A DNA stretch of 64,000 nucleotides from Naegleria gruberi (taxonomy: Eukaryota): assembly GCA_000004985.1 (NCBI GenBank), contig GG738876.1; one strand, 5' to 3'. The translations under genes were made by a program, and so were the position numbers. The stretch's first letter is position 1. The number at the start of each line of letters is the position of its first letter. Below, one piece after another: positions 8,236-63,649 of this stretch. The notes under the pieces are model-generated. The model was not told where the DNA came from. It was given only the letters and a program-made list of their open reading frames with translations, and did no database searches.

Positions 8236-9946
8236 ATGTTTAAAAAAATGAAAAAACAAGTTTCGTCCACTTTCTTACTGGTTATTTATTGTATTTTCGC
8301 TGCTTGTTTCTTGCTCAGTTCTGCTGAAGGATTAGTTCCATCCACACAACCATACTTTTTATGGCCTAATCCACAAACAGGAGAAGCAACAGTTTATTTT
8401 AAAAACGGAGGTTCGAAACCAGTCGAAACTTTGTGGGTTGGTTATGCTGCTTGGAAAGATGCCCCACAAGTTAAAAGCAAAATTTCCAATTTGATTTCAA
8501 GAGGAATTGTTCCATTCATGTAGGTTTTGATTAACTTATTTTATTGGAAATATTATTGGAAAGTCAATCTTATCATTTTGGAGATAATGGACTCAGAGGA
8601 CAATTCGAATTAGCTCTTGCTTTTGATAGAGAAATTGCTAGTGCTATTGGAAACTCTTTTGCCATTGTAAATTTGGAACCAGAATGGGATGTTGATGTTG
8701 TTTTGAATTTATTCAAATCTTCTCAAGGAACTCAATCATTATTGAATAGAATTCAAACATTTAAGAGTCTGGCTCCAAATTCAGTGGTTGTGAGTACTCC
8801 AGGATTGTGGAAATCAGCTCAGGACTATTCATTCTTTAGCTCTGTAGATTCCAAATTGAATGCTCGTGCCATGTTGATGCATGTTGTGAATTCTGGAGAT
8901 GCATCATGTGCTAAGAAACAAGATGGATCATTGTGGCCATATGGTGTAAAATCTTTGAGTGAGGGAATTTCAATGGTCAAGAGTAAGATTGATGAAAATT
9001 TGAACAAGATGACACAAGCTTGGGGTGGTTCTTTACCATTTGAGTGGATTTTGAGTGATGTTGGTGTTACTAGTTGTGGATGGGGAGCTGATGGACAAGC
9101 TGCTATTGTTAATGAATTGATTAAGGTGAGTAATTTTTTATATAACAATGAATATTCGAATTATTGAAATATTGTGGAATTATTTATAATATCAGAATTT
9201 GGATTGTTTATATGCTAGTGGATTCCGTGGATTTAATTTGAGAAATTCAGGTCCATCTGATTTATGGGAAAGAGCTATGGGTATCAACAATGAAGGAATG
9301 TTCACATTCACCACAAGTGCAGCAACCATGAATGTTATTAAAACTGGATTGACCAAGGTTAATGCATTCCTTGTCAATGGCCAAAAACCTTCATGCTCTT
9401 CAAATAATGGTGGATCAAATTCTGGTTCAACTTCCTCATACAAGGTCAATGTCATTAGTGGAAGTAATGATTGGTGGACTCAAATTGAAGTTTTGCCAAC
9501 TTCATCTGTTCAAACAGTTGTCTTGAAATGTGGATCTGCATCAACTTCATTGGAAAGACCAGCTTGGTCCCAAACTCAATTTGTCAAAGGACTTTCCGCA
9601 CAATGCCCAATGGGATCAGATATTCAAGTTATTGTCAACTCAAAATATACCTATCCTATCAAGTATACTGTTGGAGCTAGCTCTGCAAATACTCTCAGCG
9701 ATATGCCACCTCTATTCCAAAATTCTCCAACCAAATANNNNNNNNNNNNNNNNNNNNNNNNNNNNNNNNNNNNNNNNNNNNNNNNNNAGTTTGAAGCAAA
9801 TTAGTGAAAATACTTGGGAAGGTGAAATGCAAAATGGTTTTTGCCCAATTGGTGCCAATGTTCAATTGTTTGTAGTGTTGAGAAATGGACATGTTGAAAG
9901 ATATGATATTATTTATGGTTATGATAATGTTGCCAGATTGTATTAA
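8236..9946 (+). CDS. Secreted multi-exon protein, TIM-barrel-hydrolase-like, with a putative C-terminal carbohydrate-binding beta-domain. Exons are 8236-8519, 8564-9125 and 9196 to beyond 9737, then a gap, then up to 9946.
   Basis: A signal peptide is present (MFKKMKKQVSSTFLLVIYCIFAACFLLSSAEG). Intron 8520-8563 has a GTAGGT donor and a GAAAG acceptor. Intron 9126-9196 has a GTGAGT donor and an ATCAG acceptor. Both restore the frame across the track ORFs. An NLEPEW motif is reminiscent of a clan GH-A acid/base residue. The C-terminal W- and G-rich region (DWWTQIEVLPTSS...VVLKCGS) looks like a binding module. The frame across the 9738-9787 N-gap is arbitrary. Confidence 0.4.
9738..9787. other. 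Assembly gap (50 N)
   Basis: A run of N is present in the sequence. Confidence 0.99.
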
Positions 9947-15805: not shown

Positions 15806-18000
15806 CTAACGAGTATGTAAAAATCTGTGAGGATGATTTCTCTTGGTTTCTTCATAAACTTCCAAACAAAATCCAACATGCATTTGAAGGTGAAGATATC
15901 TTCTGTGTAAAAGTGGTGACCTCTCTGTCATTTGTTTGAGGTTTCTCAGGTCTTGATAGAGATATTGAGCGAGCTCTTCTACGTAATCATACAATAAATT
16001 AATGCTTGGATCATTTAGTAGATTGGATAACACATCATAGTGAATCTTGGCAGCAACTTCAACTGAGTAAATAACAGGGAGTTGGCAATACTTGAAAAAT
16101 GGTAATTGGGTTACCTTGGTAATTTCATTGGCGGCAGAGGTTATATCTGCCGAAGAAGATATTCTGTACTTGTGTTGTTTGAATAGAATCAAAGCTTTAA
16201 CTCCAAGACAAACAACAAGGAATGTGTAGGTACGATCAGAATTCATACTTGAAAATACCTTCACAATCATGTCCAATTTTGTCATTATTTGTTGAACTGG
16301 TTCTTCCAAGCTGAAAAGTTGTGGCCTTCCAGAGTGGGACATAATAGATGACCTAAGTTGGTTGAATGTAGGACTGCTCACAGCAGTATTGAGACACGCA
16401 ATGTGCTTCTCAACAACAAATTTAGAATACTCATCAAAATCTAAAATGTCACCAAATGTCAAATTGTTGACAATTTTCTTATTAATTGCATCAATCTCAC
16501 TTTCCACAACATCTGTTAGTGAGGATAATTAGAAAATTAATAACCAAAATTTAACAACATACCACTCAAATAGAATAATTCTGAAACACATAGACCTTGT
16601 CTAATAAAACTACAATGTTCATCCATGTCCTTTTCTCTTTCTTTCAAATACCATGTGCAAATAGAATAGAAATATTTGGATCTTGCCACACAATCCAAAT
16701 AACATTTAGAGTTGGCTGCTTTTGAACATGCTGTGGCTGAAGAACATTTGGATGGACTTTTGCATTCAGCACTCAATAGATAGTATGCCATCAACGTGTA
16801 CGTATAAATGACAGAACTGTCATTGGTTTGATCGAAACACTTGGAAATGTGATCTCTTCCCTTCTCGAAAAATATTTTAGCAAATCCCATATTACCAATC
16901 CTGAAGAATGAAATAGCATGCATTAAAAACAAGAATGCCAGCTTGGAGTTTCCTAGGGGCTCTCTAGGGTCAATCTTGTCTTCCAGCTCGCTCTCTAGGT
17001 CAGTTTTTCCTGTAATAGAAACACTGAGCCAATACATTAATTCATCTCTGTTGGATGGTGGGACCATAGAATAGGAAAGACTCTTATACACATCTAATGA
17101 AATATTGTCAAAATATTTTCTATCAAGCTCAATTTGTCGTAAGTTATTGAGATAGGCTCTTTCATTGATATACCTTGATTCTCTTTTCACTGGAATTGGA
17201 ACTGATGGAGGTGATTCCTTCCTTTTGGATATTGTTTTGCTCTTTCTCTCAGTAATTACAGATGAGTCATCAACAAATTGATACTCTACAACACCTGTCA
17301 ATGAATTATTCGAATTTAGTATGGTTTTTGGACCTCTTTTTCTTGCTTGAGCATAAACACATTGCTTTTGTGAACGTAGACAATTGGAGCAACCAGGATA
17401 AGCCACACGGTCACACTTTTTGTGATTCAACTTGCAAAAGATACAAGCATTATTCATCAATACAACATCTACATTTGTTGATTGAGCTGTTATTGAATCT
17501 ATATTTGAAGGACTTGTTTTATCACATGAATTAGAGGCTTTAGAAGATGCTGTAAATGTTGATGAACTCTCGGATGAGTTGTGTACAAGTAAACCTGTAT
17601 TCAGCATTGTGAATGGAGTATTTACCTGTGTAAGATTGAAGAAGTGATCAGTTGTATTGTTGGTAGTGTTTGTTGGTAATGTTGGAGTCTTCTTCTTCGT
17701 ACTTACAAAGGCTGGATTGAAATTGTTTTCCATTTGATTATTACTCCTCATCACATCACTTGATGAAGTGGCTGATGAGGTTGCATGATGATTAGATTGT
17801 TGCGCCATCATTTGTGTGATGTTATTGTTGGAGAACATGTTTTGTGAATTAAATAAGAGGTTTGAGCCAACATTAGGAAGAGTCACCCTTTCGCTCTGAC
17901 CAGTCCAGGAATTTGTCTGTTGGCATGTTGACGAAGAAGGCTGCTGATGCAAGTTCAAATTAAATTGCTGATGTTGTTGTTGATGATGTTGCATTATCAA
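15806..18000 (-). CDS. Second Zn(II)2Cys6 transcription factor. Exons are 16563-18000 and roughly 15806-16512. Intron 16513-16562 has a GTATGT donor and an AACAG acceptor.
   Basis: ACIFCKLNHKKCDRVAYPGCSNCLRSQKQCVY is a complete six-Cys cluster. The N-terminus is polyQ/N-rich. Splicing joins ...ELFYLS to DVVESEIDAINKK... in frame with phase 1. The 3' end may contain a further small intron near 15940. Confidence 0.6.
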
Positions 18001-30418: not shown

Positions 30419-31440
30419 AAAACAAATTGTAAGATGTAGTTTAATGAGCTGGACTAGTGGCAAAACTATTTATTTTGGAAACATTTCACAAAAAATGGGA
30501 AACAATTCTCAAATCTTGAAGTGAGGTATAGCAAACATTTTGATGAATCAGATGATGATTATGAAACCTCTCTTAAATATTAGTAAGAACCAACTTTTAA
30601 TTTTCCTTGCCATTGGTGAATAGAAAGTTCTTGAAGATTCTTCTAACTTTCTTTGAAACATAGTAAATAGTTGAATTGGTAGCATGTTTTATCCAATACA
30701 GCATTCTCTTAATGTTGCACTTTTCTGCAATGGTAGCATACAGCATGAGATTGTGGCATAGCTCATTTGTGCAAGGAGATTCATCCATGATTTTAAGGTC
30801 TGCCCTTCATTGAATCTTCCCAAATCTATGCCAGCAAAATGACACAAATAGTCCAACATGAATGTTTTGACATTATTTTCAACTCAAAGTTTGGCGAAAC
30901 ATTTGTCGAATAATTTTTGAAAGATGTATGTTTTAATTCGGAAAATTTTAAATCTACATGTGTCCAGTTTACAAAAGATTTCAAGTACCAACTCTATAAA
31001 TTTCACTACTCATCAATTTCTTCCGCTGTTTTGCTTTCTTTTCCTGCAAATCTTCAGCAAATTCAAAAAAATCGGAACGAGTGCAAATAATTAGCAAATC
31101 AGAAAATTTCCCAAATTTGAAATTTTCTTCTTCCTCTTCTTGAACTTGCTGAAATAATTTGGTTTTAAATTGAAATTTGGAGTACATTTCCAACATTTCG
31201 GTGAAATAAATTGGTGCACTTCCTATGCAAATATGAACAATTGGTCTCATTTTTTTTTAATATTTAATTAAATTAAATATTTAAGTAGTATAATTTTGTT
31301 GTAAAGTATTGCTGCTTCAATTTAGCTCAACACATGTCCAAGCGCGTATTAATTCATTTTCATAAAATTCTATTACAATAAAATAATTAATACGTACTTC
31401 AAATTCTTAAAATGTAAGATCAACAACATTTCAAAAAAAA

Positions 31441-38418: not shown

Positions 38419-39067
38419 TTTTTTTGCTTAGAGTTTTGAGAACACTTTTAGATGGTTTCTTATTTGGAAATATTAGGCTTGTTGTTTTGGTCAATTATGA
38501 AAATTTGTTCTATTTGATGTAATTTGATGAGATTTTATTAATAATGGAATGTTTATTATAATTTAATATTAACAATAAATTAGCAAGTAAATTTAATATT
38601 CATTGTATTAAATTAATAAATTGATCCTGATCAAAAATGTATACAATTCCGATCATATTCCCTCTGTCAAAACCCTTATCATTTTGATATTAATAATTTC
38701 GCCTTTTCATTCCTCATGATCAACTTGATCTTTCAAAATATGAGGCAATTCTACCTTACCTTACAATATCAATCCATTTTTTCCTCATTATTATCAACCA
38801 AACCCTTCAACTACCAAATTCAGTCCTATTGCAAATATTTCCAAAAAGGACTTTGTAAAGCAAAGCGAAAAGCCACAACAACCTTCCTCACTACTGTAAA
38901 TTTTCATTCCGTTGCTGTTGTTCTTAAGCGCTTATTGCTGATAATATCTAGGGCTTGATCAGATTGATGCTTGCATACAAAGAGAGCTCTCTGATGACGA
39001 GTTTCAAGTGTGATAAAAGTAATGATAATTCACCATCAAATCGAAAAGAAAAACAAAATCTGAAAAA

Positions 39068-45485: not shown

Positions 45486-46235
45486 ATGCCAACCCCATCC
45501 GTCGGTACAACTAGACACACCACACCTCAAAGACACCATGTCTCGAGATTATTGAATAATAATAAGAAACTGTTGGATCAAAGTCAAGGTGTTGGAGTTA
45601 AATCCAAAATTCCAACTGCAGAACTTGAAAATAGATTTTCAAAACTGACTCATTTACTTTATGATACGAACGTTAAATTCAAAGATTTGAATGAGCATGT
45701 TTATCCTTTGATTCATGAGGATATTACATTTACAGATCCTTGGCAAACCATCACTGGAAAATCTCAATTTGTGGCCCAATTGAAAGGTTTTCATAGTGCC
45801 ATATTCTTTACTTATGATACTTTACAATTATCAGTTCAAGTAAATGAGAATGAAGAAAGTGGAAGGGTTATTGTTGATGGTTGGATGTATTTGAATCAAG
45901 TCAAGTACATTACAGGAACAATTCCATTGAGAACTGTACTGGTTTATGATTTTGTTTTCAATGGAGATGGTGACACTTTTCTCATCACTGATTTGGAAGA
46001 AATGTGGAGTTTGGGCGATTTAATTGAAAAAATTCCAATCATTGGATGGTTTTACAATTTATTTAGATTTGGTGCTGGATTTTTCTTTACCATCTTCTTC
46101 CTTATTTGCACTTTTATTGCACTACGTTTACCCTTTTCAAATGTGAGTGGTCAACCAAGTGGTAAGAATACTTCTAGTGGTGGCAAGAAGAGTTCCATTT
46201 GTAGCTCGTTGAATCCTCTCAATTTTGCAAAATAA
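45486..46235 (+). CDS. Hypothetical protein with a possible NTF2/SnoaL-like fold and a C-terminal TM
   Basis: A 249-aa ORF. The C-terminal hydrophobic segment is GFFFTIFFLICTFIALRL. Confidence 0.3.
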   Translation: MPTPSVGTTRHTTPQRHHVSRLLNNNKKLLDQSQGVGVKSKIPTAELENRFSKLTHLLYDTNVKFKDLNEHVYPLIHEDITFTDPWQTITGKSQFVAQLKGFHSAIFFTYDTLQLSVQVNENEESGRVIVDGWMYLNQVKYITGTIPLRTVLVYDFVFNGDGDTFLITDLEEMWSLGDLIEKIPIIGWFYNLFRFGAGFFFTIFFLICTFIALRLPFSNVSGQPSGKNTSSGGKKSSICSSLNPLNFAK

Positions 46236-46451
46236 ATAGTTGTGATAATAGTATTGAATCTTATGATTAGTTTCCAAATTTATTAAAAACACCTTTCGTA
46301 GCGAAAATCACCACTCAGCACATGTGGTGATTCCACCAAAAAACAAACTTAAAGTCTTTTTATAGAACTCAAACTAAATTACTAAAAATGATTTCAAAAC
46401 ATTTGGCATCCGTTAAAATATGCCCTATTAACAATCACCAAAAAAAAAGAG

Positions 46452-48915: not shown

Positions 48916-51339
48916 ATGAGTCAGACATTAGCATCAACCATCTATCACAACAATACCATCGGTCTGCTTAACTATACCGATTCACAGACATTGCTGACGG
49001 AATTTGTTCGATTCAGTGCTTTTAAATTATATGGTAATGTCTTTCATTATACCTACGTAGATGATCACTTCTATTCGGTAGGCTTCATTCTCGGCATGAT
49101 ATCATTGGGAATTTTTATCGTCTTTGTGTTACCTTGCCAATTGGCTGTAAATATTCTGTATGGAATTCGGGCGCGAAAAATATTGAAAAAAAACAGAAAC
49201 AACTCATCGATAGAGACTCCACCCTCATCGGCTTCCTCTGGTGATGCTAGTGTAAATAAGGAAGAAAAGAAGAATAATACTGATAAATATACCTTTAGAG
49301 AAACACTGAAGAAAGCATGGTATGAATATGTTTTACTTGAGGGTGTGGCGAGGGCTACTCCTTCCTTTGTGATGGTCGTTTTTATTTGCTTAGTGATTTG
49401 GTTAACGAGTGCCTTTTCAAAGATACATTTTGCTGGAGCTGCAGTCTTGATGGCAATTACAATGACAATGTGGTTGATTCAGTGGGTATTGTTTGATTTA
49501 GGAACATTTACGTATGAAGTACTGAGGAGTTTTTCAACAAGATTTGGAAAGAGCAAAACATCGGAAGTAACTAAGGATCAAGAATTGAAAAATGTAGATG
49601 TGACAACATCAACCACATCAACCATGAATATTAATCAGAGCACAACAGCAATTGTTCCACCTTCGAATGATAGTTCATCTCATCATCATCACTCTGAACA
49701 TCGTTTCGGTGGATTAGTTAAGGATATTTCATTTGGATATGTTAAATCTTTGGCCAATCCTCTATTTAGAAGACATCCCTTATTAGGTGTACTTATAGTA
49801 TTCATCTTCTTCTTTGTTACTTTTCTGATATTTTTGGTTGTCAATGGTGTAACAGCAGACTTTTGTGTTGCCTACGATCCGATTGAAATCAGTACACTGG
49901 CCACTAGAGCTGGTGATTCTACTAGGTGTAAATCGGGCACTATCTGTTTTACTTACATGACGATTTCAGCAGATATTTCATCGGAAATGATTGTCAATTT
50001 TCAAATAGATGCAAAACAGCTCAACAGCTCTTTTGTTTATTATGGAACATTTGACCCTAATGCCGAGTTTCAATTCGATTCTAAGACAGCCTTAAAGGCT
50101 AATGCAAATTGCTTCAAAATGACTGTCATTGAAATTGATAGATGGCAATGTTATGTTAATTTGAGAGGATTGCAGTCTTCATCATCCTACTATGTCAAGA
50201 GTGCATTTACAGGAAAAGATTATACTGCCACTAGTGTCACTTTTGAGGATAGCAATGTATACAAGTTTAGAACAGCACCAAGTGCCTCTTCTCCTGATAG
50301 AATTGTTTCCTTCTTGAATGGAGGTGATTTAGCTTGGGGAACCAATTTCTTGTCCTTAGTTAAACTGATTCCTCCAACAGGAAAGAACATTTCAACAGCT
50401 CCCTATTTCTTTATGGTGGGTGGCGATGTTGCATACGATAATGGATGTGCCTACTGTTATATGAGATGGGAGAGTTGGTTCTCAAATTGGGCCAAATATA
50501 TGGTCGTTCCTCTTCAACACACCTCCTCAGTGTCACACACCTATACTCTGCCTCTAGCCTCTTGCGTTGGTAATCATGAGGCTGGAAATTTCAAAAGACC
50601 AAGATCTGACGATGCCTTCTATATCAGATATTTCCCTCATGAATTGGAGGGAGATTCTTCTAATTTGATTGTTTCTGACCCTCAATATACCAGAAAGTTA
50701 CAACACGTCCACTATCTCTCTTCCCACACATTGCTAATGGTGTTGGACTCTTGGGTTCACGAATCTCCAGAGCAACAAGTCTCATACATTGTCAATTACT
50801 TCAATGCTTTAGATCCATCAAAGTACAAGAACAGAATGGTTACGATTCACGAGGGAATTTATGCCTCCTCTTCTGAATTGAGCCCAATGACTGCAGCAAT
50901 GAGAGAACAATGGGAGGCCCTCTTCTTGAAGTATAACATTACACTAGTCTTGGAGAATCACGTTCACACCTACAAGCAAACCTATCCTCTCAGATTTGGT
51001 AAGGTGATGGATACTAAGGCTGATCCTTTAAATTCAAGAGCTGGAGCCGATAATGATTATTATTATGAAAGAAATATTTATAATGGATTAGGAAAGGAAG
51101 AAGAAAAGGGAATTATCTATGTTGGAGATGGAAGCTTGGGTGCACATTTTTATGGTGACAAGCTCTTGTTTGGAGATCCAATGTTCAGACAATTAGGAAT
51201 AATAACTCATTTCCACCATATCATTACTCATGATACAAATAGCGTTCCAACTATTGAGTTGACAGCTTATGGATATGATTCATCAACCGGAGACTCTTAC
51301 AGAGTTAGTGGTTCTGGTTTGACAATTAAAACTTTCTAA
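48916..51339 (+). CDS. Purple-acid-phosphatase-like metallophosphoesterase fused to an N-terminal polytopic membrane domain
   Basis: Metallophosphatase motifs are present: GGDVAYDNG (GDxxY), SCVGNHEAG (GNHE) and LVLENHVHTYKQ (GHxH-type). At least four N-terminal TM helices occur in the first 300 aa. Confidence 0.55.
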   Translation: MSQTLASTIYHNNTIGLLNYTDSQTLLTEFVRFSAFKLYGNVFHYTYVDDHFYSVGFILGMISLGIFIVFVLPCQLAVNILYGIRARKILKKNRNNSSIETPPSSASSGDASVNKEEKKNNTDKYTFRETLKKAWYEYVLLEGVARATPSFVMVVFICLVIWLTSAFSKIHFAGAAVLMAITMTMWLIQWVLFDLGTFTYEVLRSFSTRFGKSKTSEVTKDQELKNVDVTTSTTSTMNINQSTTAIVPPSNDSSSHHHHSEHRFGGLVKDISFGYVKSLANPLFRRHPLLGVLIVFIFFFVTFLIFLVVNGVTADFCVAYDPIEISTLATRAGDSTRCKSGTICFTYMTISADISSEMIVNFQIDAKQLNSSFVYYGTFDPNAEFQFDSKTALKANANCFKMTVIEIDRWQCYVNLRGLQSSSSYYVKSAFTGKDYTATSVTFEDSNVYKFRTAPSASSPDRIVSFLNGGDLAWGTNFLSLVKLIPPTGKNISTAPYFFMVGGDVAYDNGCAYCYMRWESWFSNWAKYMVVPLQHTSSVSHTYTLPLASCVGNHEAGNFKRPRSDDAFYIRYFPHELEGDSSNLIVSDPQYTRKLQHVHYLSSHTLLMVLDSWVHESPEQQVSYIVNYFNALDPSKYKNRMVTIHEGIYASSSELSPMTAAMREQWEALFLKYNITLVLENHVHTYKQTYPLRFGKVMDTKADPLNSRAGADNDYYYERNIYNGLGKEEEKGIIYVGDGSLGAHFYGDKLLFGDPMFRQLGIITHFHHIITHDTNSVPTIELTAYGYDSSTGDSYRVSGSGLTIKTF

Positions 51340-51506
51340 TATTTTTACTTAACACCCAATGAATTTGAGGAATTGCTCTATTAAATTGATTTTTCAGAAT
51401 GATCTCCGTAGTTAACTTATCTTTTTGTTCGCTTGAATTATTAATGATTTTATTTGAAAATTACCACTATTCAATATTTTCATGCTATTTAATTATATTT
51501 TAAATT

Positions 51507-53372
51507 CTAATGATTAATCTTGTCACCTTTAACGTTATCTTTGAGATCACTTCTTGGTTTGAGTGAAATCTTCAAATTTCCAGGTCTGACAGTAATTCCA
51601 GGAATGTCTGTAACTTTATCCAATGGATCTTGTTCATTATTCAATAGTTCCAATTCGTAGAATTGTAAAATTCTACACAAGATTGAAAATGCTTCAATTT
51701 CTGCAAATTTATAACCCTATTAAATTTCAATAAAAATATTCTAAACTAAACTTACAATCTATTTCAATAAATTAGGACAAATAGTTTTAAAATTCGAATA
51801 CTTACACACTTTCTATTTCCCATAGAGAATGGAACCCATGTAAAATCATGTTGAATCTTTGATTGTTCCTCAGCATTCATTGGAAACCTTTCTGGAATAA
51901 ACTCATTAGGTTTCTCCCAATATTTTTCATTTCTATTCGTACTGAAAATATTAATCATCACTGTACTTCCCTTTGGAATAGTAAACTCTCCAATAGTAGT
52001 CGTTTTCTTTGCAATTCTAAAAACATTGACAACTGGTGGATGCAATCTCAAAGCTTCCATCACAATTGCATTCAAATAATGCATTTGATTGTAATCTTCA
52101 TAGGTAGGAGCTCTATTTCCAATCAATCTATCAATTTCTTCTCTTGCTTTCTTTTGAATTTCAGGTCTTTTTGCTAGCTCATAACAAACATAGGCAGAAC
52201 TTGAAGCTGTCGTCTATAGTTTCGTATATAATATGAATTGATGAATAATAGAAAGTCCAATAAATACGAACCTCATGTCTATTATAATAAATTAGGACAA
52301 ATAGTTTTAAAATTCGAATACAAACCCTGCAAGCGCGAAGATAAATGAATCTGCTTTGAGTTCAGAACGTGAAAGTAAGCCATTTTGAAGAACGTTGGCC
52401 TCTACTAACATACTCAATAAATCTCTTCTCTTATTAGATTCAGTTTCGTCTGTAGTTTGGAGATTAGTTTCGTATTCTTTGATACGTTCTTCAATGATTC
52501 GATCTAAAGTAGAAGAAACAATTTCCTCTGCTTCATTGACTTTAAAGTATTTTCTAGCCATTTTGGCAAAAATTGAACTTCCCAGGAATCGTCTAATAAT
52601 CAAACCTTTGGATAAAGTAGTTTCCATTGATTTTCTAAATACTTTTCCTTCAGGATTTGGATTATCACTTTCGAATATAGAAAAGTCCAATCCAAATAAA
52701 TGCTGCCTTTCCCAAAACATCTGTTCATTCCATTAATTTAATCACACAATTCCATTATAAATTTAAATTCGAAACTATAAACTCACCCAAAGTAATATCA
52801 CTAAAATCAGCAGTCGAATCAATCAACACACCAGCACCAACACTTCCACTCTTAATTTCCTTATCCCATTTCGTTCTTCTCATCAAATCAACACTCTCAC
52901 TCGCAACCAAAGCAACAAATTCCAAATTTTTAGGTGAAAATGCAGAATTTGCAACTCTGTGATGATTTTTCCAAGTTTCAGAGTTTGCATCCAAAGCAGA
53001 CAAAATATTAACTCCAAAAAGGTTGAATGGATCGTACATATCAGGTTCCTTGACAAAGTTGTGTCCTTTGGCTACGAGCAGTTCTTTGAGAAGATCACGA
53101 TCACAAATGGAGATGAGATTAGTTTTGAGCATTGAGACACGAACTGTTTTGGTTTTGGAATCTCCCTTCTCTTGGGTGAGTTGATACATGGAATGATGAG
53201 AGCCAAGGAAGAAGTGAGAGGCAATGATTGGAACTCTCTTGACAAAATTCATTAATTGCCATGATCCTGGAATGTTTTTGACTTTCGAATAGTTTTGATA
53301 GAGACGAAAGGATAAACTGATCAGTGCAGTTAGCAAGATGGCTAATAGCGTGTACGCAACAAGTGCAAACAT
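51507..53372 (-). CDS. Cytochrome P450, multi-exon gene, possibly a pseudogene because of a 4-nt frameshift near 52694-52701
   Basis: The heme-binding loop is PFSMGNRKC|I|GYKFAEIEAF. The ExxR motif is EALRLHP. The I-helix is FALAG|HE|TTASS. The DVLGKAAFG-like motif is present. Intron 1 at 52720-52786 has a GTGAGT donor. Two 47-nt near-identical introns lie beside micro-exons. The final exon was recovered by reading the reverse complement of 51507-51745. Confidence 0.6.
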
Positions 53373-53542
53373 TTTTTTTAGTATGAGAAAGCAAGTGGAT
53401 GATCAATTCGTTCTGACATGATTGCTGCACTTTCATGAGAAGTTGGATCAATTCTCCGAAAGAAACCGAAAGGGTAAATTATTCACAATTTTGTACCATT
53501 TCATACCCTTTTGTAAACCTTCTACAAATTGCAATTAACACT

Positions 53543-54415
53543 TCATAAAAAACTATAATCTCTAAATAAACAATTCCCCTTAATTTTGACATCAACTGAC
53601 AGTAATTGTTCCAAATCACTCAAATATTCGAGTCCTTGAATACTAATCTCATTCTCACTTATATCGAGTTTAGTCAATTGTATCAATTTGTTAATGTGTT
53701 TACATCCCTCATCCCCAATATAATTACTGGCAATATTAAGGTTAGTTAATTGAGTCAATTTACCAATGTATTTGGTTCCCAAAGCAGTAATATTATTCTC
53801 AGAAATGTCAAGATATGTTAAATGCTTCAATTGACTGACTTGTTTAGCTCCCTCATCACCAATTTCATTCTGACTAATATCAAGTTTAGTCAATTGATTC
53901 ATCTCACCAATGTATATAGCACCTTCAACACCAATATTGTTGCAACCTATTTTAAGATTTTTCAATTTTTTCATAATTCCACTAATGATCTTTGCTCCTT
54001 CCACTCCAACATTATTATTTCTAATATTGAGATGAGTCAATCGATTCATCTCTTGCAACTTTTTACAATCAAATACCACATCAGAAGGAACATCAACATT
54101 GTATTCCAGCTTGAGACGTGTAATATTAGGTAAGAATTGGCTTCCAACTTGGAATTTTGAATTACTTTTACATGAAAGGGAAAGAGTTGATCGTTCGGAG
54201 GTGATGATTTTCAACCACTGCTTTGAAACCAATGAACAACTCAGCACGAGAAAGGTAAAATCTCGAGGGAGAAAGGATAAGATTTCACCCAGTACATCAT
54301 CAGAGAATATAGAATCAGGATCTTGTGAGAGTTTCTTCCGTTTTGTTTGGTCGTCTTTAATGTTTGAAATATGGTAAGATTGGTGATCATCAAATTCTCT
54401 TACTCTCTTTATCAT
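53543..54415 (-). CDS. F-box and RNI-type LRR protein
   Basis: F-box DVLGEILSFLPRDFTFLVLSCSLVSKQWLKII is present. LRRs are of the form LTKLDISQNEIGDEGAKQVSQLKHLTYLDISENNI. Confidence 0.55.
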   Translation of the reverse strand: MIKRVREFDDHQSYHISNIKDDQTKRKKLSQDPDSIFSDDVLGEILSFLPRDFTFLVLSCSLVSKQWLKIITSERSTLSLSCKSNSKFQVGSQFLPNITRLKLEYNVDVPSDVVFDCKKLQEMNRLTHLNIRNNNVGVEGAKIISGIMKKLKNLKIGCNNIGVEGAIYIGEMNQLTKLDISQNEIGDEGAKQVSQLKHLTYLDISENNITALGTKYIGKLTQLTNLNIASNYIGDEGCKHINKLIQLTKLDISENEISIQGLEYLSDLEQLLSVDVKIKGNCLFRDYSFL

Positions 54416-55995: not shown

Positions 55996-58900
55996 ATGAG
56001 AATTGTTACTCAAAAGCAAAGAAGATGGGGTAAACAAACTTCCCATCAACTACAGTCATTGTTAAAAACAGCACTCGTGGTGATAACACTGTTAGTATTG
56101 ACCCTTCAAAACTTATTCGAAACTGTACAGGGTGAACAACAAGTTTCCTTCACATTAGATTCTAACAAACTCATCTGTTCGGATTCTTCAAGCTACAACA
56201 GCACAATCTTTTTAAATTCATGCCAAGAAGTGCTTGGTTCAGCCTTCACTAGTAAATTATCCAGCACAACCATTGACAATCCTTCGTCCTATTCTTCCCT
56301 AGTGAGTTGTTACTTTAATTCGGATAAAAAACTTGTGGCAGAGCTTGGCTATGGCTATGAAATTCAAGATATTTTCAAAGGAGAAACTTACTACGATGCC
56401 TTTGGAAGGAAAATAGCGATTATCATCGTTTCACAATTGAAATGTAGTTTTCAAATTTCAAAGCTACAGTACATGTACTTGATTAATGTAGTAGATTGTG
56501 GAAGTAATGTTGCCAAAATTACCTACTCTCTCACTCACGCAAATGCTGATTTACCCAAATATTCAACATTTTCACATCCAATGATGGCTATTCCCTTTTC
56601 AAATAATTATATTAACAATGGTAGACCGGATGTTACTTTTAATCTTGCTACCCAAGCACTCACATATAGTACTTCAAAAGCAAGTGACCAAACCTCAGTT
56701 ACTACTGGTGGTGTTATTGAGTATGGAACTACTACTTTGGTTGGAAATCAAGGATATACACAATTTTTTCTGAATGAAAGCTCAATTGACTCATACACAA
56801 CAACATTTGAACAACCTACTCCTAAAACATTGTATAATTATCTATTAATCAAACAGAATAGAGATGTTGTGGATGTAACAACCTTTGCATCTGGGTATAA
56901 TTACAAATTCTCCTCATCATCAGGTTATTCGAAAACAATATATACTTCATTTTCATACAAGTCAGATTGTTACTACTTGTCAGGAGGTGATAAAACTCAT
57001 CACAAAACACAGGATTTAACAATTAGTATACAGTCAACTGATTTGGAAAGATGTCCATTATATGCTTTACAATACATTTTTGATGGGAATGCTAAAACTA
57101 AAACGAGTAGCACGACATATGCTGCATCTTCACTAACAGATGGTTCAGAAAAGACTGTTACAGTAACTTTGGTTCAACCAACTGGTGGATACGTTGGTGC
57201 GTTCAGAACAACTGTGAGAATTGGAATTTTCCCTGCCATGATGAGACCAGTTTATTTCCCTATTGCACAAACAACTGGACAAAAGCTAACACTTCAATCC
57301 ATTATCGACATTCCTAATCTCACGACCTCTTTAATTTCATGTCAATTGATTGTTGCAACAGGAACTAATGAATATACTTCAAATTCAATTACCTATGATT
57401 ATACTCCAAATTCAATTCAAGTTCAAAATTACAAAACCTATTCGATTATATCGGTTTCAATTACTGTTGGAAATCCTGGAACTTCTTACAAGATTAGAGT
57501 CAATTATAATGGAGATACAAAACATTACAATGATTTCCAAATTTCTCCACAATCAAAACCAAACCTATTGGGTATTTGTAAAGTATCCACAGTTGAATCG
57601 AACCCAATAGCCTACGAGACATTTTTTGGTATTTATTGTGAAAATTATGCAGATTTTGACTTTAGATCAATGAAAATTCAAGTATTGAACGATCAATCAC
57701 AATCAATTTTGACCTTATCCAATACCAAGTACACTCGTATTTTTGCGAGATTACCAAAATCAGCAACAGGTAAATCAAATACTGTCTTGTTTACATTGAC
57801 AGATAGCACAGGAGCTGTATTTGAGTTTAAGGATACCTATAAAGCTTCCATGTGGAGCGACACTAATTTGATTAGTACAGTAGATTTCTACATCAAGTCC
57901 AAGCAAGTGAGAAACTATCAAACAGCCAATAATATTGCAATTTTGTTGGACATTCTTGCAGATTATTGTAAGAGGAATACATTATCTTCTTCTGAGATGG
58001 TTACTGTGAAGGGAATTGTTCGTTATGCCATAAATGAAACATTTAACATTAGAGATACTTTCCATCCTAATGTTTATCCTGAGGCTACTGAATTATTGTT
58101 TGGATTATTTAGAGAATCAACTAATTTGGCGAATTATCTAGGATTTTCAGAGTTTAATGACAAATTGAAGGAAATTCTCTCATTTATGACAAGTTATGTA
58201 AGAAAATCATCCTTTTCCAGCACTGATTATAATTTCTTGATAGATTACATGTCAAGACTTGTGGATAATGGAAATCAAACAACTACTGATCCATCTGCTG
58301 TTTCAACTTTGAAGAAAAACATTGATGGATTGACTAATATCGCCAGCAAGAATTCTCCATTCAAGAGTGATTATTTTTCATATCAATCTCAGACCTTCTA
58401 CTCATCAGATGAAATTGCTTCAAATCAAGTGAATTTGGAAAATAGTTGGGTTAGAGTGTTGTTTGGATCTGAGGTGGCCAATTTGGTAAAATCTCAATCA
58501 CAATACGATTTGGAAACAAGTTTATACAAGAAGTATATTGTGGAAAATAATGTTACACTCCCAGTTATTGCCTCTATCAGTTTGAAGAGACAAGATAGCT
58601 CTGTGGTTAATGTTACTGGATTACAGACACCAGTATTAATATATTTCAACATGGATCTAATTAATTCAACAATGGCAAATCAATATAGAAACTATCAATC
58701 GAGAATTTCATGTTATTACTTGAATGAGTTGACAAGCAAGTGGGCCAATGATGGTCTAACAACAGAGATTATCACTGAAAATGGTCAAACTGTTGTCAAG
58801 TGTTCTTCCACTCACCTTACTTCATTCACAATATTCTCAGACTTGTTCAATACTACAGGTAGTAACACAAATACCCCATCAACAGATAGAAATGGACTAG

Positions 58901-60032
58901 ATGTTGGGGCAAGGGTAGCCATTGGCGTTTCAATTTCAGTATTCTTCCTCATTTTGATAATTGTGATTGTAATTATTATCATTGTAATTATATGTTGTCG
59001 TGTGAAAAAAGGCAAAAATAGTCAGAGCAATGTTTCTGATTCTGTCCAGGAAACCAATCCAATCACCAAGAGTTATGTAGAATTGAATCCAGTCTCCAAC
59101 TCTGATTCTGGTCCATCATTGTTTATTAGTGATTACAAGTCAGTGAGAGAGCCTTCATCCTCGAAACAATACGATACTACCAGTGGAAGTTCATTTACCT
59201 CAGAGCCAACCAGCTCACTCATGACTTCAACAAGTGGAAACTCTGTTATTGGAAAGAAGTATGAAATTTTGGAAAAGATTGGCCAAGGAGCATTCGGGGC
59301 TGTATTTAGAGCTAAAAATCTAGCCTATACTGGAAGATCTGGAGAATATCAATATGTTGCCATTAAAAAGATTCAGCTTTCTGGCCTCTCTGAAATGAAT
59401 GACAAATTCAAAGAGGCGGTCAACATGTTCAAGATTAGAAATGAGCATTTAGTTTGTTTGGAGGATGCTGTGGTGGACGAAACGACCATGTCACTCTACT
59501 TGGTCATGCAATATTATTCTCAAGGAGATTTGGACAAGTTTATCAAAAGCAAGCAACTCTTATCTGAGAGCATTCTGAAACAAATTATTGAACAAGTATG
59601 TGAAGGATTGAAATATTTGGAAGAGGAACGTAACATGCTCCACAGAGATATCAAACCTTCCAATATTTTCCTATCCAGCTATGATGGAAACAATATCAAG
59701 ACAGTGCTCAGTGATTTTGGATTGGCTAAGGAAAATAACATGATGTCAAGTGTTTCATTCGCTGGAACTCCATACTACATGTCTCCACAGGCCTTAATTG
59801 GAACCAAGTATAGCTTTAATGCAGATATCTTTAGTTTGGGATGTACCATTTTCATTCTCATCACTCATGACATGTCTCAATCCATAGCTCAATTATATTT
59901 CCAACATCAGGGCAATTTCTCTGAGGTTTATTCCTTCATTACCAACTCTATCCGTCAACATTCGAATGAACAATTCCAATACAGTGATGAATTCGTTCAG
60001 CTCTTATTTGCATTGATGGAATTTGATCCCAA
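55996..60032 (+). CDS. Single-pass receptor Ser/Thr protein kinase with a large extracellular domain ending in a GPS/GAIN autoproteolysis motif. The 3' end is truncated by an assembly gap.
   Basis: A signal or anchor sequence is present. The extracellular region of about 950 aa is followed by CYYLNELTSKWANDGLTTEIITENGQTVVKCSSTHLTSFTIF, which matches the GPS consensus C..W....G......C.C.HLT.F. The TM is VAIGVSISVFFLILIIVIVIIIIVIICC. The kinase domain has GQGAFGAVFRAK, VAIKKI, HRDIKPSNIFL, DFGLAK and GTPYYMSPQ. Confidence 0.65.
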
Positions 60033-60181
60033 NNNNNNNNNNNNNNNNNNNNNNNNNNNNNNNNNNNNNNNNNNNNNNNNNNNNNNNNNNNNNNNNNNNN
60101 NNNNNNNNNNNNNNNNNNNNNNNNNNNNNNNNNNNNNNNNNNNNNNNNNNNNNNNNNNNNNNNNNNNNNNNNNNNNNNNNN
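60033..60181. other. Assembly gap (149 N)
   Basis: A run of N is present in the sequence. Confidence 0.99.
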
Positions 60182-61545
60182 TAACAATGTTGTGGATTGA
60201 AAAGGTTGGTGCAGTTGGAGGACAACTTGTTGCTGGATTTCAACCCGAATGTATGATTTGCAGAGAAACAATCAACAATGGAGAGGTTTGTATTGGCATG
60301 AGGAAGGTTCATGATTTGGCTATTCACTTTCCCTATCATCCGAGAAGATTTCTCGAAGAAGAGGAAAGGCTTCGTTCCGATGATCATCCATTCAATGAAA
60401 ATTATTTTGATGATTGCAAACAGGACAATGATTATGTACATACTGATTGTTATCCGTACCAATTGGTGAGGCCGTATGCTTGTATGTTTGATGATTCATC
60501 ATCGAATGCTTCTCATGCAGAACAAAAGCAAATTCATAAGTTGATTTCTGATTGGCAATATGGCTATAGAACATTGAATGCCAAGACAAAGAAGAGAAAA
60601 GCAGATAATGGTGATGAAAGTGAGAAGAAAACAAAGACTTCAAAGAGTACTGCAACAAAAAGGAAGAGAAAGACAAAGAAGGAATCAACAGACAGTGCAT
60701 CATCATCAACTAGTACCCCTGGAGGAAGTAGTAGTGGTACTACTGATTACAGTTGGATGAATGCTATTGATTGCACTAATGTGGATTCACCTTACTTGTT
60801 TGGACTCTCAGATGATGCTTGGTATGAAATTCTATCCTATCTACCTCATTATTCAATTGTGAAGGCCTCACAATCATGTAAGGCATTGTACCTTTATTCG
60901 AATAGGAGTATTCTTTGGGAGAATTTGGCAAGCAAAACTATTTGTCCTAATGCAAAACAAGTCCAACAGGAATACTTTCCAACTCTTACTGATGACTTTA
61001 AAAAGGTTTTCAGATTATTGTACAATAATTGTTGTGTAATTTGTGGAGATTATATCAGAAAAGGTGAAGACCTAGATAATAGAAAGAGTTTGTACAGATC
61101 AAAAGGTGGTATTATTGTAGAATCTAATCCATTTTATTATAATTTTATGATTGATCAGTGTCATTGCTCAACATGTTCAGAATCACCACTCATCAATACC
61201 TTTACAAGAACAAATGCCAAGACGCTTTATAGGGTTACAGATACTGAACTAGGGTGTACTAGAAATTTTGCAAAGCCTAACCCTTATTCTCCATCTGTTG
61301 CTATGGGAATATTCCTAGAGTTACAAGTTAAAATATTTCATTTACAGAAAGTGGAAGAAGAATTGAGGAAAAATTTCAAAAAATCAAAAACACATCCAAA
61401 ATCAGATTATTTAAAAATTATTGACAAGGCAAAACGAGGAGATTATGGAAAGGATTGTAAATTATATATTTTCTTAAATGATTCGAATAAGAAGATTTGT
61501 AAAGATAAGGCTATTTATACTTATATTGATGAATTGAGTCCATAA
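60182..61545 (+). CDS. Cys-rich F-box-like protein. It is either the C-terminal part of the kinase gene or, more likely, a separate gene whose 5' end is lost in the gap.
   Basis: An F-box-like motif is present (DAWYEILSYLPHYSIVKASQSCKALYLYSNRSILWENL). Cys/His clusters are present (CMICRETINNGEVC, CCVICGDY, CHCSTCSES). Frame continuity with the kinase across the N run is not informative. Confidence 0.35.
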
Positions 61546-62761: not shown

Positions 62762-63649
62762 TTTGTTATTTCAACTAAAATATTATTATATTGTTATTAT
62801 TATGTACTATTGCTTTAGGGACAAAATCTAATGATCAAGTAAAACTTGTTATTTGATGTTTGCGTATTTTTTTTTCTTACTTTTGAATGAAATATTCATC
62901 AGCGCACTATTTAAGGTTTTTGGCGGGAAATAATTGTCCTGCATTAAATGAAACACGTGTTTCACATAAATTCAATCAATTGATACTTGACTAATTGGAA
63001 AGTGAGATGTGAATGAGAAAGAATGTGGAAGAAACACGTAAACCACATCAAAAAACATGTGTTTCTTCTATTTGGTTTTTCACTGGGATGTAAATTTGAA
63101 ATTGATTACAAAAATAAATTACAAAATTGTTGTAAGTTTCAATTTTTGAGCATGTATTAATTTTATAAACCACAATTTGCTATTCATTCCAATAGAGATC
63201 AATTCTACTACCTCGAAAACTATGATTATTTAATTGGGAATTACATTAGTTTCTTATAAAAAGATGCTTAGACCTAATTGTCAACCTTTCTGTCGTTTGT
63301 GAGCACAATCGTGTTCAACAAAGATGGCTGGGTTTCAATTAAGGTAATGTGGTGGTGTGAAATGTTGTCATGCCGATTGATGAACTGCTGTAATTCTTTT
63401 AACTGTTTGCTGAATTTTAATGTTTTTTACTGAAACACTATTAAAGTTGATTTCTCTAATTCTGAGCAGGTTGAAACAGCATCTTCTTGTGAAGAAACAT
63501 TGGAACAAAGTTAAAGGAAATGGATCGAATGTAACTACATTTTTTTGCTTAAGTAATATTCTAAACAGAAACCTTTCCCTTATTTCCTTTCTTGTAAATT
63601 TTTTGAAAACATTAATTTTATTTACAATTTGATAATTCATTGTAATAAT

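What the first reader, a model, noticed from the sequence alone, without database searches (positions are those of the whole stretch)
51740..52330. Two near-identical 47-nt introns (introner-like element) in one P450 gene, each next to a micro-exon
On the minus strand the two introns are almost identical. One is gtaagtattcgaattttaaaactatttgtcctaatttattgaaatag at about 51762-51808. The other is gtttgtattcgaattttaaaactatttgtcctaatttattataatag at about 52282-52328. Plus-strand copies of the shared core start at 51768 and 52288, exactly 520 nt apart. The conserved P450 motifs can be restored only by treating each as a complete intron followed by a tiny exon. The first case gives a 3-nt ATT exon, yielding FSMGNRKC-I-GYKFAE with the canonical C-x-G heme loop. 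The second case gives a 7-nt ACATGAG exon, yielding FALAG-HE-TTASS, the canonical AGxETT I-helix. Identical introns at different sites of one gene are the hallmark of recently mobile introner elements or intron duplication. Micro-exons of 3 and 7 nt are unusual.
Basis: seen in the sequence. Interest (0 to 1): 0.78.

Follow-up and report, generated by a model that had tools for sequence, protein, structure and literature searches.

The report
Duplicated 47-nt intron in Naegleria P450
One unannotated cytochrome P450 gene of the amoeba Naegleria gruberi carries two almost identical copies of a 47-base intron, each lying 7 or 3 bases from another intron; this is a rare, clean trace of an intron being copied to a new site, but a known kind of event rather than a new one.

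Summary
Two 47-nt minus-strand segments, 52325-52279 (A) and 51805-51759 (B), are 43/47 identical with a 36-nt exact core. They are the strongest direct repeat in the 64-kb window, and the similarity stops exactly at the GT and the AG.

The window is Naegleria gruberi NEG-M. The host is an unannotated P450 gene (51507-53372, minus; Pfam 3e-88). The conserved AGHETT and RKCIG motifs are recovered only if each copy is spliced out, followed by a 7-nt (ACATGAG) or 3-nt (ATT) micro-exon and a second, unrelated intron.

There is no target-site duplication, terminal inverted repeat, stable fold or exon duplication. I read this as a same-gene intron duplication made by an intron-precise copying process, probably of the reverse-splicing type.

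"Introner family" is untested. Only two copies were seen, metagenome and viral scans gave none, and the N. gruberi genome could not be searched.

Site A is shared with a Willaertia magna paralogue and site A' with N. fowleri. Sites B and B' are unique, so A->B is the likelier direction.

Exon 2 carries a 4-nt tandem duplication that shifts the frame. The gene may be a recent pseudogene, and no transcript evidence was available.

The parts
51507..53372 (-). Unannotated cytochrome P450 gene of Naegleria gruberi, from the ATG at 53372 to the TAG stop at 51509-51507, with 6 exons and 5 introns
   Evidence: Model built. Pfam p450 match at 3.4e-88. The gene is 58-63% identical to N. fowleri and N. 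lovaniensis P450s. No N. gruberi protein matches it.
52787..53372 (-). Exon 1 (ends ...GATATTACTTTG G)
52721..52786 (-). Intron 1, 66 nt, GTGAGT...AACAG, phase 1 in the Asp196 codon
52326..52720 (-). Exon 2 (ends ...GCAGG)
52694..52701 (-). ATTTATTT: a 4-nt tandem duplication inside exon 2. It shifts the frame between DVLGKAAF and GLDFSIF.
   Evidence: The CDS is 1609 nt (3n+1). Homologues read LDVLGKAGFGLDFSIF without a break. Coordinates.
52279..52325 (-). Intron A, 47 nt, copy 1 of the duplicated intron (GTTTGT...CTAAT...ATAATAG), phase 2 in the Gly codon of AGHETT
   Evidence: The same intron position occurs in Willaertia magna P0008.
52272..52278 (-). 7-nt micro-exon ACATGAG, which completes Gly and encodes His-Glu of AGHETT
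52214..52271 (-). Intron A', 58 nt, GTTCGT...CTATAG, phase 0 after Glu. It is unrelated in sequence to A beyond its first 9 nt.
   Evidence: The same position occurs in the N. fowleri gene on L003.
51806..52213 (-). Exon 4 (TTASS...FSMGNRKC)
51759..51805 (-). Intron B, 47 nt, copy 2 of the duplicated intron (GTAAGT...CTAAT...GAAATAG), phase 0 after the heme-ligand Cys
   Evidence: No homologue examined has an intron at this position.
51756..51758 (-). 3-nt micro-exon ATT (the Ile of the C-I-G heme loop)
51717..51755 (-). Intron B', 39 nt, GTAAGT...TTTAATAG, phase 0. Its sequence is unrelated to the 47-nt element.
51507..51716 (-). Exon 6 (GYKFAE... to the stop codon)
52286..52321 (-). 36-nt exact core of copy A (GTATTCGAATTTTAAAACTATTTGTCCTAATTTATT). 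It includes the branch-site-like CTAAT at 52295-52291.
51766..51801 (-). 36-nt exact core of copy B. It includes the branch-site-like CTAAT at 51775-51771.

Best explanation
The two 47-nt segments are two copies, by recent descent, of one ordinary short GT-AG spliceosomal intron inside a single N. gruberi P450 gene. This is a same-gene intron duplication.

The copied unit is exactly the intron: 5' splice site, a CTAAT branch-like motif 13 nt before the end, and a TAG 3' splice site. No exon sequence, target-site duplication or inverted repeat came with it.

The most likely process is intron-precise and RNA-mediated. An excised intron is reverse-spliced into another position of a transcript of the same gene, and reverse transcription and recombination then carry it back into the locus.

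The likelier direction is A (I-helix site, shared with a Willaertia paralogue) to B (heme-loop site, unique).

Because each copy lies 7 or 3 nt upstream of another intron, the mRNA must be assembled through 7-nt and 3-nt micro-exons by sequential removal of adjacent short introns.

What is shown: common descent of the copies, their intron-like anatomy, and the need for the micro-exons to recover the conserved motifs. What is inferred: actual splicing, the copying mechanism and the direction.
For: - Identity is 43/47 with a 36-nt exact core, far beyond chance.
- Similarity ends at the GT and the AG. Exon flanks are at background identity, and at most 1 nt of junction microhomology exists, so there is no TSD (sequence).
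- There is no stable RNA fold.
- Both copies are in the sense orientation of one gene, 520 nt apart.
- Length (47 nt) and the GTNNGT start match other Naegleria and Willaertia introns, which are 37-140 nt and 15/25 GTAAGT.
- Removing both copies and their neighbour introns gives AGHETT and FSMGNRKCIG, motifs conserved across the full-length homologues.
- The 7-mer between A and A' supplies exactly the missing codon parts.
- Site A (GG|A) is also occupied in W. magna P0008, whose annotated model uses a 14-nt micro-exon. Site A' is occupied in N. fowleri. Sites B and B' are found in none of the 11 homologous genes mapped.
- No further copy appears in the window: weak hits lie inside the background given by real AT-rich 47-mers. 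Neither the metagenome scan nor the viral scans yielded a related copy.
- The literature recognises this class. It describes 'same gene duplications', half of them without exon duplication, interpreted as intron transposition within the same transcript (PMC3609843).
Against: - Only 64 kb of a genome I recall as about 41 Mb was searchable, so a dispersed family cannot be excluded.
- There are no transcript data, so splicing of the micro-exons is inferred from conservation only.
- The gene has a frameshifting ATTT duplication in exon 2 and no annotated model. It may be dead in this strain.
- The four differences between the copies are not scattered. They are two dinucleotides, at positions 3-4 and 41-42. 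By my calculation, the chance that four random changes all miss the 36-nt core is about (11/47)^4 = 0.003. That fits a converted or templated core as well as whole-intron copying.
- A (GTTTGT) and its neighbour A' (GTTCGT) share gGTTyGTATT. They are the only two of 25 introns with T at +3. Simple transposition does not predict this.
- The model does not explain why both copies sit within 7 nt of another intron's 5' splice site. Taking three other introns and about 1,600 nt of exon, I estimate roughly 1% per site if placement were random.
Confidence: 0.55

Rival explanations
1. The two copies belong to a dispersed, multi-copy introner family of N. gruberi. This would be a transposon-like element that creates introns on insertion, and the P450 gene simply received two insertions.
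For: The pair meets the loose operational criterion of two or more similar introns in one genome, with blastn E below 1e-5 and similarity not extending into exons (criterion quoted in PMC12768974). The published genome-wide screen required annotated genes, at least 10 flanking exonic nucleotides and at least 4 members (PMC9860276). It would therefore have missed this unannotated, micro-exon-flanked pair. A linker or AT-rich DNA insertion preference could explain the closeness to existing introns.
Against: - There is no third copy in 64 kb. I estimate this bounds a family at fewer than about 2,000 copies.
- There are no TSDs or TIRs.
- At 47 nt the element is very short for a mobile element.
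- Metagenome and viral scans gave no related sequence.
- Two hits in one 1.9-kb gene and none elsewhere is unlikely for a dispersed family.
- Site A is also an intron site in Willaertia.
Confidence: 0.25
2. Both intron positions are old. A short-tract ectopic gene conversion or template switch copied only the roughly 36-nt core of one intron into the other, homogenising two unrelated introns.
For: All four differences lie at the ends, as two dinucleotides around an exact 36-nt core. A keeps a 5' end like its neighbour A' (gGTTyGTATT). Site A is shared with W. magna P0008 and could be ancient.
Against: There is no flanking homology to start a conversion, since the exon flanks are unrelated. Outside the core the two still share GT and AATAG and have exactly the same length of 47 nt, which is unexpected for independent introns. 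Site B exists in no other family member.
Confidence: 0.12
3. The segments are unspliced insertions in a decaying pseudogene, so the 'micro-exons' have no function now.
For: There is a frameshifting ATTT tandem duplication in exon 2. No gene model and no near-identical protein from any source exists. N. gruberi shows no other annotated member of this P450 subfamily.
Against: The frameshift is the only lesion. About 330 codons downstream stay open, with all motifs intact. Both insertions have exact GT...AG ends, a branch-like motif, and positions that restore the frame and conserved residues. Random insertions in a dead gene would not do this.
Confidence: 0.06
4. The repeat is an assembly artefact.
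For: None specific.
Against: Each copy is embedded in unique, collinear coding sequence that aligns to homologues through both junctions.
Confidence: 0.01

Closest known systems
Same-gene intron duplications (SGD) described in fungi, with a few cases in C. elegans (Collemare et al. 2013, PMC3609843)
   Same: These are near-identical introns at two positions of one gene. In about half of the fungal cases the flanking exons are not duplicated, and those cases were interpreted as intron transposition within the same transcript. They are low in copy number and ordinary in intron length.
   Different: The host here is a heterolobosean amoeba, for which my literature searches found no such report. 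Both copies also abut another intron, leaving 7-nt and 3-nt exons.
Fungal introner-like elements (ILEs)
   Same: Both are sense-oriented intron copies without TSDs or TIRs, and reverse splicing or retrohoming has been proposed for both (PMC3609843, PMC9860276).
   Different: [quoted passage not shown] This element has two known copies, is 47 nt long (regular introns here are 37-140 nt), and folds at -0.6 to -1.4 kcal/mol, no better than shuffles.
Introners of algae and other aquatic protists, i.e. DNA-transposon-derived families (Gozashti et al. 2022, PMC9860276)
   Same: They are similar introns in one genome whose similarity ends at the intron borders.
   Different: Most such families show TSDs and/or TIRs, and at least 4 members in different genes are required for the definition. 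Here no TSD or TIR is present and both copies are in the same gene.
Near intron pairs and intron sliding (Lehmann et al. 2010, PMC2891723)
   Same: Old and new intron positions lie less than 32 nt apart in homologous genes. The P450 family here shows 12 of 13 distinct positions packed into three short clusters.
   Different: That work argues that such close introns are very unlikely to coexist in one gene. Here they do coexist, at 7 nt and 3 nt in N. gruberi and at 14 nt in W. magna P0008. In one pair the newer intron's source is identifiable.
Constitutive micro-exons of 15 nt or less, known in plants and animals (PMC8831610, PMC4674806)
   Same: They are very short coding exons that annotation pipelines miss and that carry conserved residues.
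   Different: The 3-nt and 7-nt sizes are at the lower limit reported. PMC4674806 cites 6 nt as the smallest constitutive exon and 3 nt as the smallest alternative exon known before its 1-nt case. Here they look like a by-product of an intron being placed next to an intron.

Membership tests
U2-type GT-AG spliceosomal intron | GT at the 5' end, AG at the 3' end, and an extended 5' splice site like the host's other introns | tested here: met
   A starts GTTTGT and ends TAG. B starts GTAAGT and ends TAG. All 25 compared heterolobosean introns start GTNNGT, and 15 start GTAAGT.
U2-type GT-AG spliceosomal intron | Branch-site motif upstream of the 3' splice site | tested here: inconclusive
   CTAAT lies 13 nt before the 3' end in both copies. 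The Naegleria branch consensus was not established here.
U2-type GT-AG spliceosomal intron | Removal restores the reading frame and conserved residues | tested here: met
   AGHETT and FSMGNRKCIG are recovered.
U2-type GT-AG spliceosomal intron | Observed splicing in transcripts | not testable with these tools
   No N. gruberi transcript data were reachable, and no near-identical protein exists in the databases.
Same-gene intron duplication (SGD, transposition subtype) | Near-identical introns at different positions of one gene | tested here: met
   43/47 identity, 520 nt apart, same gene and strand.
Same-gene intron duplication (SGD, transposition subtype) | Flanking exon sequence not duplicated | tested here: met
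   6/30 and 11/30 identities in the flanks, and the encoded peptides are unrelated.
Same-gene intron duplication (SGD, transposition subtype) | No further copies in unrelated genes | tested here: inconclusive
   None in the 64-kb window. The rest of the genome was not searchable.
Introner family (Gozashti et al. 2022 criteria) | Intron pairs with blast E of 1e-5 or lower, with similarity not extending into exons | tested here: met
   E = 5.5e-16 for the core. Flanks are dissimilar.
Introner family (Gozashti et al. 2022 criteria) | At least 4 member introns, in non-paralogous genes | tested here: inconclusive
   Two members, both in the same gene, in the window. The genome-wide count was not obtainable (criterion).
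Introner family (DNA-transposon type) | Target-site duplications and/or terminal inverted repeats | tested here: not met
   The insertion boundaries are unambiguous to within 1 nt, and neither a TSD nor a TIR is present (sequence).
Fungal introner-like elements | Longer than regular introns | tested here: not met
   47 nt, against 37-140 nt for the 23 other introns.
Fungal introner-like elements | Stable predicted secondary structure | tested here: not met
   Minimum free energy is -0.6 and -1.4 kcal/mol, with z of +1.0 and +0.9 against shuffles.
Fungal introner-like elements | Hundreds of copies per genome | not testable with these tools
Cytochrome P450 (PF00067) | Profile match, heme loop FxxGxRxCxG, and I-helix AGxET | tested here: met
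   Pfam 3.4e-88 over residues 45-515. FSMGNRKCIG and AGHETT are present.
Cytochrome P450 (PF00067) | Uninterrupted reading frame (a functional gene) | tested here: not met
   A 4-nt tandem duplication at 52694-52701 shifts the frame. The CDS is 1609 nt.

The most novel reading that the evidence does not exclude
Naegleria, and perhaps heteroloboseans generally, has an active intron-copying process that places new intron copies within a few nucleotides of existing introns. The N. gruberi P450 gene would be caught at the intermediate stage, with the new and old intron coexisting across a 3-7-nt exon. Later loss of the older intron would then produce the 'jitter' of intron positions seen at three motifs across the family. 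This would be the first introner-like or reverse-splicing-type gain documented in Discoba, and a concrete mechanism for apparent intron sliding.
Probability: 0.15. Interest if true: 0.75.

Novelty: new member of a known kind. Interest (0 to 1): 0.5.

Why it matters
Recent intron gains whose source can be identified are rare, and most documented ones come from multi-copy introner families. Here the source and the copy sit in one gene and nothing but the intron was copied. That pattern is the one predicted by the long-debated reverse-splicing (intron transposition) model.

The case also shows two introns coexisting 3 nt and 7 nt apart, a state that near-intron-pair studies assume hardly ever exists. 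The surrounding gene family shows intron positions scattered within a few nucleotides of each other in related species.

If transcripts confirm the micro-exon splicing, this locus would be a natural test case for two questions: how new introns arise next to old ones, and how small an exon an intron-defining spliceosome can handle.

Practically, the N. gruberi reference lacks this gene model. Micro-exons plus a frameshift defeat annotation pipelines.

Tried and rejected
1. More diverged copies in the window. Gapped local alignments gave weak hits at 9126-9195 (an intron), 46221-46320, 17081-17200, 38541-38640, 30901-31000 and 63121-63220. These exceed mononucleotide shuffles. They fall inside the distribution given by real AT-rich 47-mers from the same window and by cross-species intron pairs, so I rejected them as family members.

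2. TTCGAA as an intron motif. It is over-represented window-wide (45 observed against 16 expected) and is mostly exonic. Rejected.

3. Homology of the element to the neighbour introns A', B' or intron 1. All z-scores are below 2. Only the first 9 nt of A and A' agree.

4. Homology between N. gruberi intron A and the W. magna intron at the same site. None was found, z = -0.5.

5. Similarity between the two N. fowleri introns at the equivalent regions. None was found.

6. Metagenome scan for the core. It gave two hits in GC-rich, unrelated contigs, which I take as chance. Two viral-contig scans gave nothing.

7. Fetching the N. gruberi scaffold through exact-protein look-ups. It is not on record.

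8. Alternative splice paths that avoid the micro-exons or bypass the frameshift:
   - GTATTC...CTATAG (108 nt), giving LAGFTT.
   - A single 89-nt intron that drops the Ile.
   - GTTTCG...GGCAG or GTTTAT...GAAAG, bypassing the ATTT insertion.
   All of these lose conserved residues or use poor splice sites.

9. Rfam scan of 51400-53500. Nothing reached the gathering score.

10. TSD or rotation analysis of the insertion boundaries. No duplication longer than 1 nt was found.
Full report
**Observation**

I read 50800-53800 on the minus strand and searched for repeats. Both confirm two near-identical 47-nt segments:
- A = 52325..52279: GTTTGTATTCGAATTTTAAAACTATTTGTCCTAATTTATTATAATAG
- B = 51805..51759: GTAAGTATTCGAATTTTAAAACTATTTGTCCTAATTTATTGAAATAG

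They match at 43 of 47 positions. The four differences are two dinucleotides, at positions 3-4 and 41-42, around a 36-nt exact core. Start-to-start spacing is 520 nt.

The match is not chance:
- No shuffle produced a match.
- The blastn E-value is 5.5e-16.
- It is the strongest direct repeat in the 64-kb window.
- Among 300 pairwise comparisons of 25 heterolobosean introns it has z=16, while no other pair exceeds 5.3.
- The 30 nt on either side are at background identity, 6/30 and 11/30. The repeated unit is therefore the GT...AG segment itself.

**Host gene and organism**

Three ORFs of the window are exact matches to Naegleria gruberi NEG-M proteins XP_002675725, XP_002675730 and XP_002675736.

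The region 51507-53372 (minus) encodes a cytochrome P450, with Pfam PF00067 at 3.4e-88. Its closest relatives are N. lovaniensis, N. fowleri and Willaertia magna P450s at 46-63% identity. No N. gruberi protein matches it, so the gene is unannotated.

My model has six exons:

| Exon | Coordinates |
|---|---|
| 1 | 53372-52787 |
| 2 | 52720-52326 |
| 3 | 52278-52272 |
| 4 | 52213-51806 |
| 5 | 51758-51756 |
| 6 | 51716-51507 |

It has five introns of 66, 47 (A), 58 (A'), 47 (B) and 39 (B') nt.

In the 12-homologue alignment the I-helix motif AGHETT and the heme-loop motif RKCIG are conserved across the full-length sequences; A325, G326 and H327 are invariant in all 12. In the window they are recovered only through the 7-nt exon ACATGAG (GG|A CAT GAG|ACG) and the 3-nt exon ATT. 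Every alternative path I could construct loses conserved residues or the reading frame.

The CDS is 1609 nt long, which is 3n+1. Exon 2 reads GCA GCA TTT ATTT GGA TTG GAC, where all homologues read ...GKAGFGLDF.... This is a perfect tandem duplication of ATTT at 52694-52701, and it shifts the frame.

It is the only lesion. The roughly 330 codons downstream are open and conserved.

So the gene is one of three things: a very recent pseudogene, one null allele, or a sequence error. I could not decide between them. No transcript-derived or other near-identical protein exists in the searched collections.

**Anatomy of the element**

Each copy has the following features:
- A GTNNGT 5' end, like all 25 compared introns (15 of which start GTAAGT).
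- A CTAAT motif 13 nt before the 3' end.
- A TAG 3' end.
- A length within the local intron range.
- No stable fold.
- No inverted termini.
- Insertion boundaries that are unambiguous to within 1 nt, so there is no target-site duplication.

Both copies are in the sense orientation of the gene. The neighbouring introns A', B' and intron 1 are not related to it, with z below 2.

**Copy number**

Within the window there are only these two copies. Weaker gapped matches exist. They are no better than what real AT-rich 47-mers of the same window find.

One scan of JGI metagenome contigs gave two matches in GC-rich, unrelated contigs, which I take as chance. Two scans of viral contigs gave nothing.

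Whether a dispersed family exists is therefore untested. Finding no third copy in 64 kb only limits such a family to fewer than about 2,000 copies, taking a genome size of about 41 Mb from my own recollection.

**Comparative intron map**

I fetched the genomic loci of 11 homologous genes and mapped their introns.

| Gene | Introns |
|---|---|
| N. lovaniensis P0001 | none |
| N. fowleri P0004 | none |
| N. fowleri gene on L003 | one after GAG of AGHE (same site as A'); one in the Arg codon of the heme loop |
| Metagenomic relative (L001) | one at CATG\|AA |
| W. magna P0006, P0007, P0009 | one each, after the second Thr of AGHETT |
| W. magna P0008 | one at GG\|A (exactly the site of A); a second 14 nt downstream, so its annotated model uses a 14-nt micro-exon |
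| N. lovaniensis P0010 (more distant paralogue) | shares the Arg-codon intron with N. fowleri L003 |

L003 comes from the same sequencing run that yields an exact N. fowleri protein.

No homologue has an intron at site B or site B'.

In a neighbour-joining tree the window gene is sister to all the close N. fowleri and N. lovaniensis paralogues. The W. magna clade comes next.

The simplest reading is that sites A and A' are old and B is the new copy, so the direction is A to B. Intron positions are so crowded here that a coincidental shared site cannot be excluded, so I hold this direction only weakly.

**Mechanism**

- Shown: the two segments share recent common descent, are built like introns, and interrupt conserved codons precisely.
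- Inferred: they are, or until very recently were, spliced, and one was copied from the other.

Four features match the class 'same gene duplication' without exon duplication, described in fungi and attributed to intron transposition within the same transcript (PMC3609843). These are the exact coincidence of the repeat with the intron borders, the absence of a TSD or TIR, the sense orientation, and the location in one transcript. They also match the general reverse-splicing model (PMC4122922, PMC3609843).

The element fails two defining features of fungal ILEs: greater length than regular introns, and a stable fold. It lacks the TSD/TIR signatures of most introner families (PMC9860276). It meets only the loosest operational introner criterion of two or more similar introns (PMC12768974).

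The large introner screen required annotated genes, at least 10 flanking exonic nucleotides and at least 4 members. It could not have detected this pair.

**What remains unexplained**

1. Both copies lie 7 and 3 nt upstream of another intron's 5' splice site. With three other introns in about 1,600 nt of exon, I estimate this at roughly 1% per site by chance.

2. The differences between the copies are confined to the two ends. Copy A's unusual GTTTGT resembles its neighbour's GTTCGT: both read gGTTyGTATT, and they are the only two of 25 introns with T at +3. This leaves room for a templated or converted core rather than whole-intron transposition.

3. Across the family, 12 of 13 distinct intron positions fall into three clusters spanning about 62 nt in total. 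These lie at the DVLGKAGFG, AGHETT and heme-loop motifs. The pattern is that of near intron pairs or intron sliding (PMC2891723). Unlike the cases in that work, the close introns here coexist in one gene in two species.

A process that places new introns next to existing ones, followed by loss of the older intron, would account for all three points. It is speculation at this stage.

**Verdict**

On present evidence this is a same-gene intron duplication in an unannotated, possibly just-inactivated N. gruberi P450.

It is a new example of a known kind of event in a lineage where I found no prior report. The unusual feature is the coexistence of adjacent introns.

The decisive tests are a whole-genome BLASTN, RNA-seq mapping across 51650-52400, and re-sequencing of the ATTT site.

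Noticed in passing
window 60934-60951 (+): An exact 18-nt match to the core of the 47-nt element (AAAACTATTTGTCCTAAT, including the CTAAT motif) lies in frame (KTICPN) inside the long kinase/F-box ORF 55996-61545, just after its F-box. The blastn E-value is 3e-5. Only 5 of 1,500 real AT-rich 47-mers have an exact match of 18 nt or more elsewhere in the window. It could be the source of the intron core or a coincidence.
   Followed up: partly
window 52694-52701 (-): A 4-nt tandem duplication ATTTATTT in exon 2 of the P450 shifts the frame between DVLGKAAF and GLDFSIF. It lies 1 nt from the position where the N. lovaniensis paralogue P0003 has an intron (L007 2611-2672).
   Followed up: partly
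L011 1418-1523 (Willaertia magna P0008 gene): An annotated 14-nt micro-exon (ACACGAAACAACAA) sits between a 42-nt and a 50-nt intron at the I-helix. The first intron is at exactly the same codon position (GG|A) as window intron A. The two introns are not similar to each other or to the N. gruberi element.
   Followed up: yes
loci L001, L003, L007, L010-L014 and window 51717-52786: Intron positions in this heterolobosean P450 family cluster tightly. There are six distinct positions within 23 nt at AGHETT, three within 10 nt at the heme loop, and three within 24 nt at DVLGKAGFG. Close orthologues differ in intron presence: N. fowleri L003 has two introns and N. lovaniensis P0001 has none.
   Followed up: partly
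L014 1734-1774 (N. lovaniensis P0010 gene): The annotated 41-nt 'intron' (GTTACG...CAAG) reads in frame as LRTHPPVVGVAKQ, the conserved ExxR/PPV region. It is probably coding sequence wrongly removed from the model.
   Followed up: no
L004 2854-3000 (N. lovaniensis P0001 gene): Homology to the P450 N-terminus continues about 150 nt upstream of the annotated start, so the deposited 480-aa model looks truncated at its N-terminus.
   Followed up: no
L004 825-1808: A 327-aa gene with a PF12323 (HTH_OrfB_IS605, TnpB/Fanzor-like) hit lies about 1.2 kb upstream of the N. lovaniensis P450.
   Followed up: no
window, whole: The palindrome TTCGAA occurs 45 times against 16 expected from a first-order model. 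ATTCGAAT occurs 12 times against 1.6 expected. Most occurrences are in coding sequence.
   Followed up: partly
window about 55121, 60004, 60163, 63857: Exact repeats of 19-22 nt occur among these positions, in and around the kinase/F-box ORF and its neighbours. They suggest repeated coding modules.
   Followed up: no
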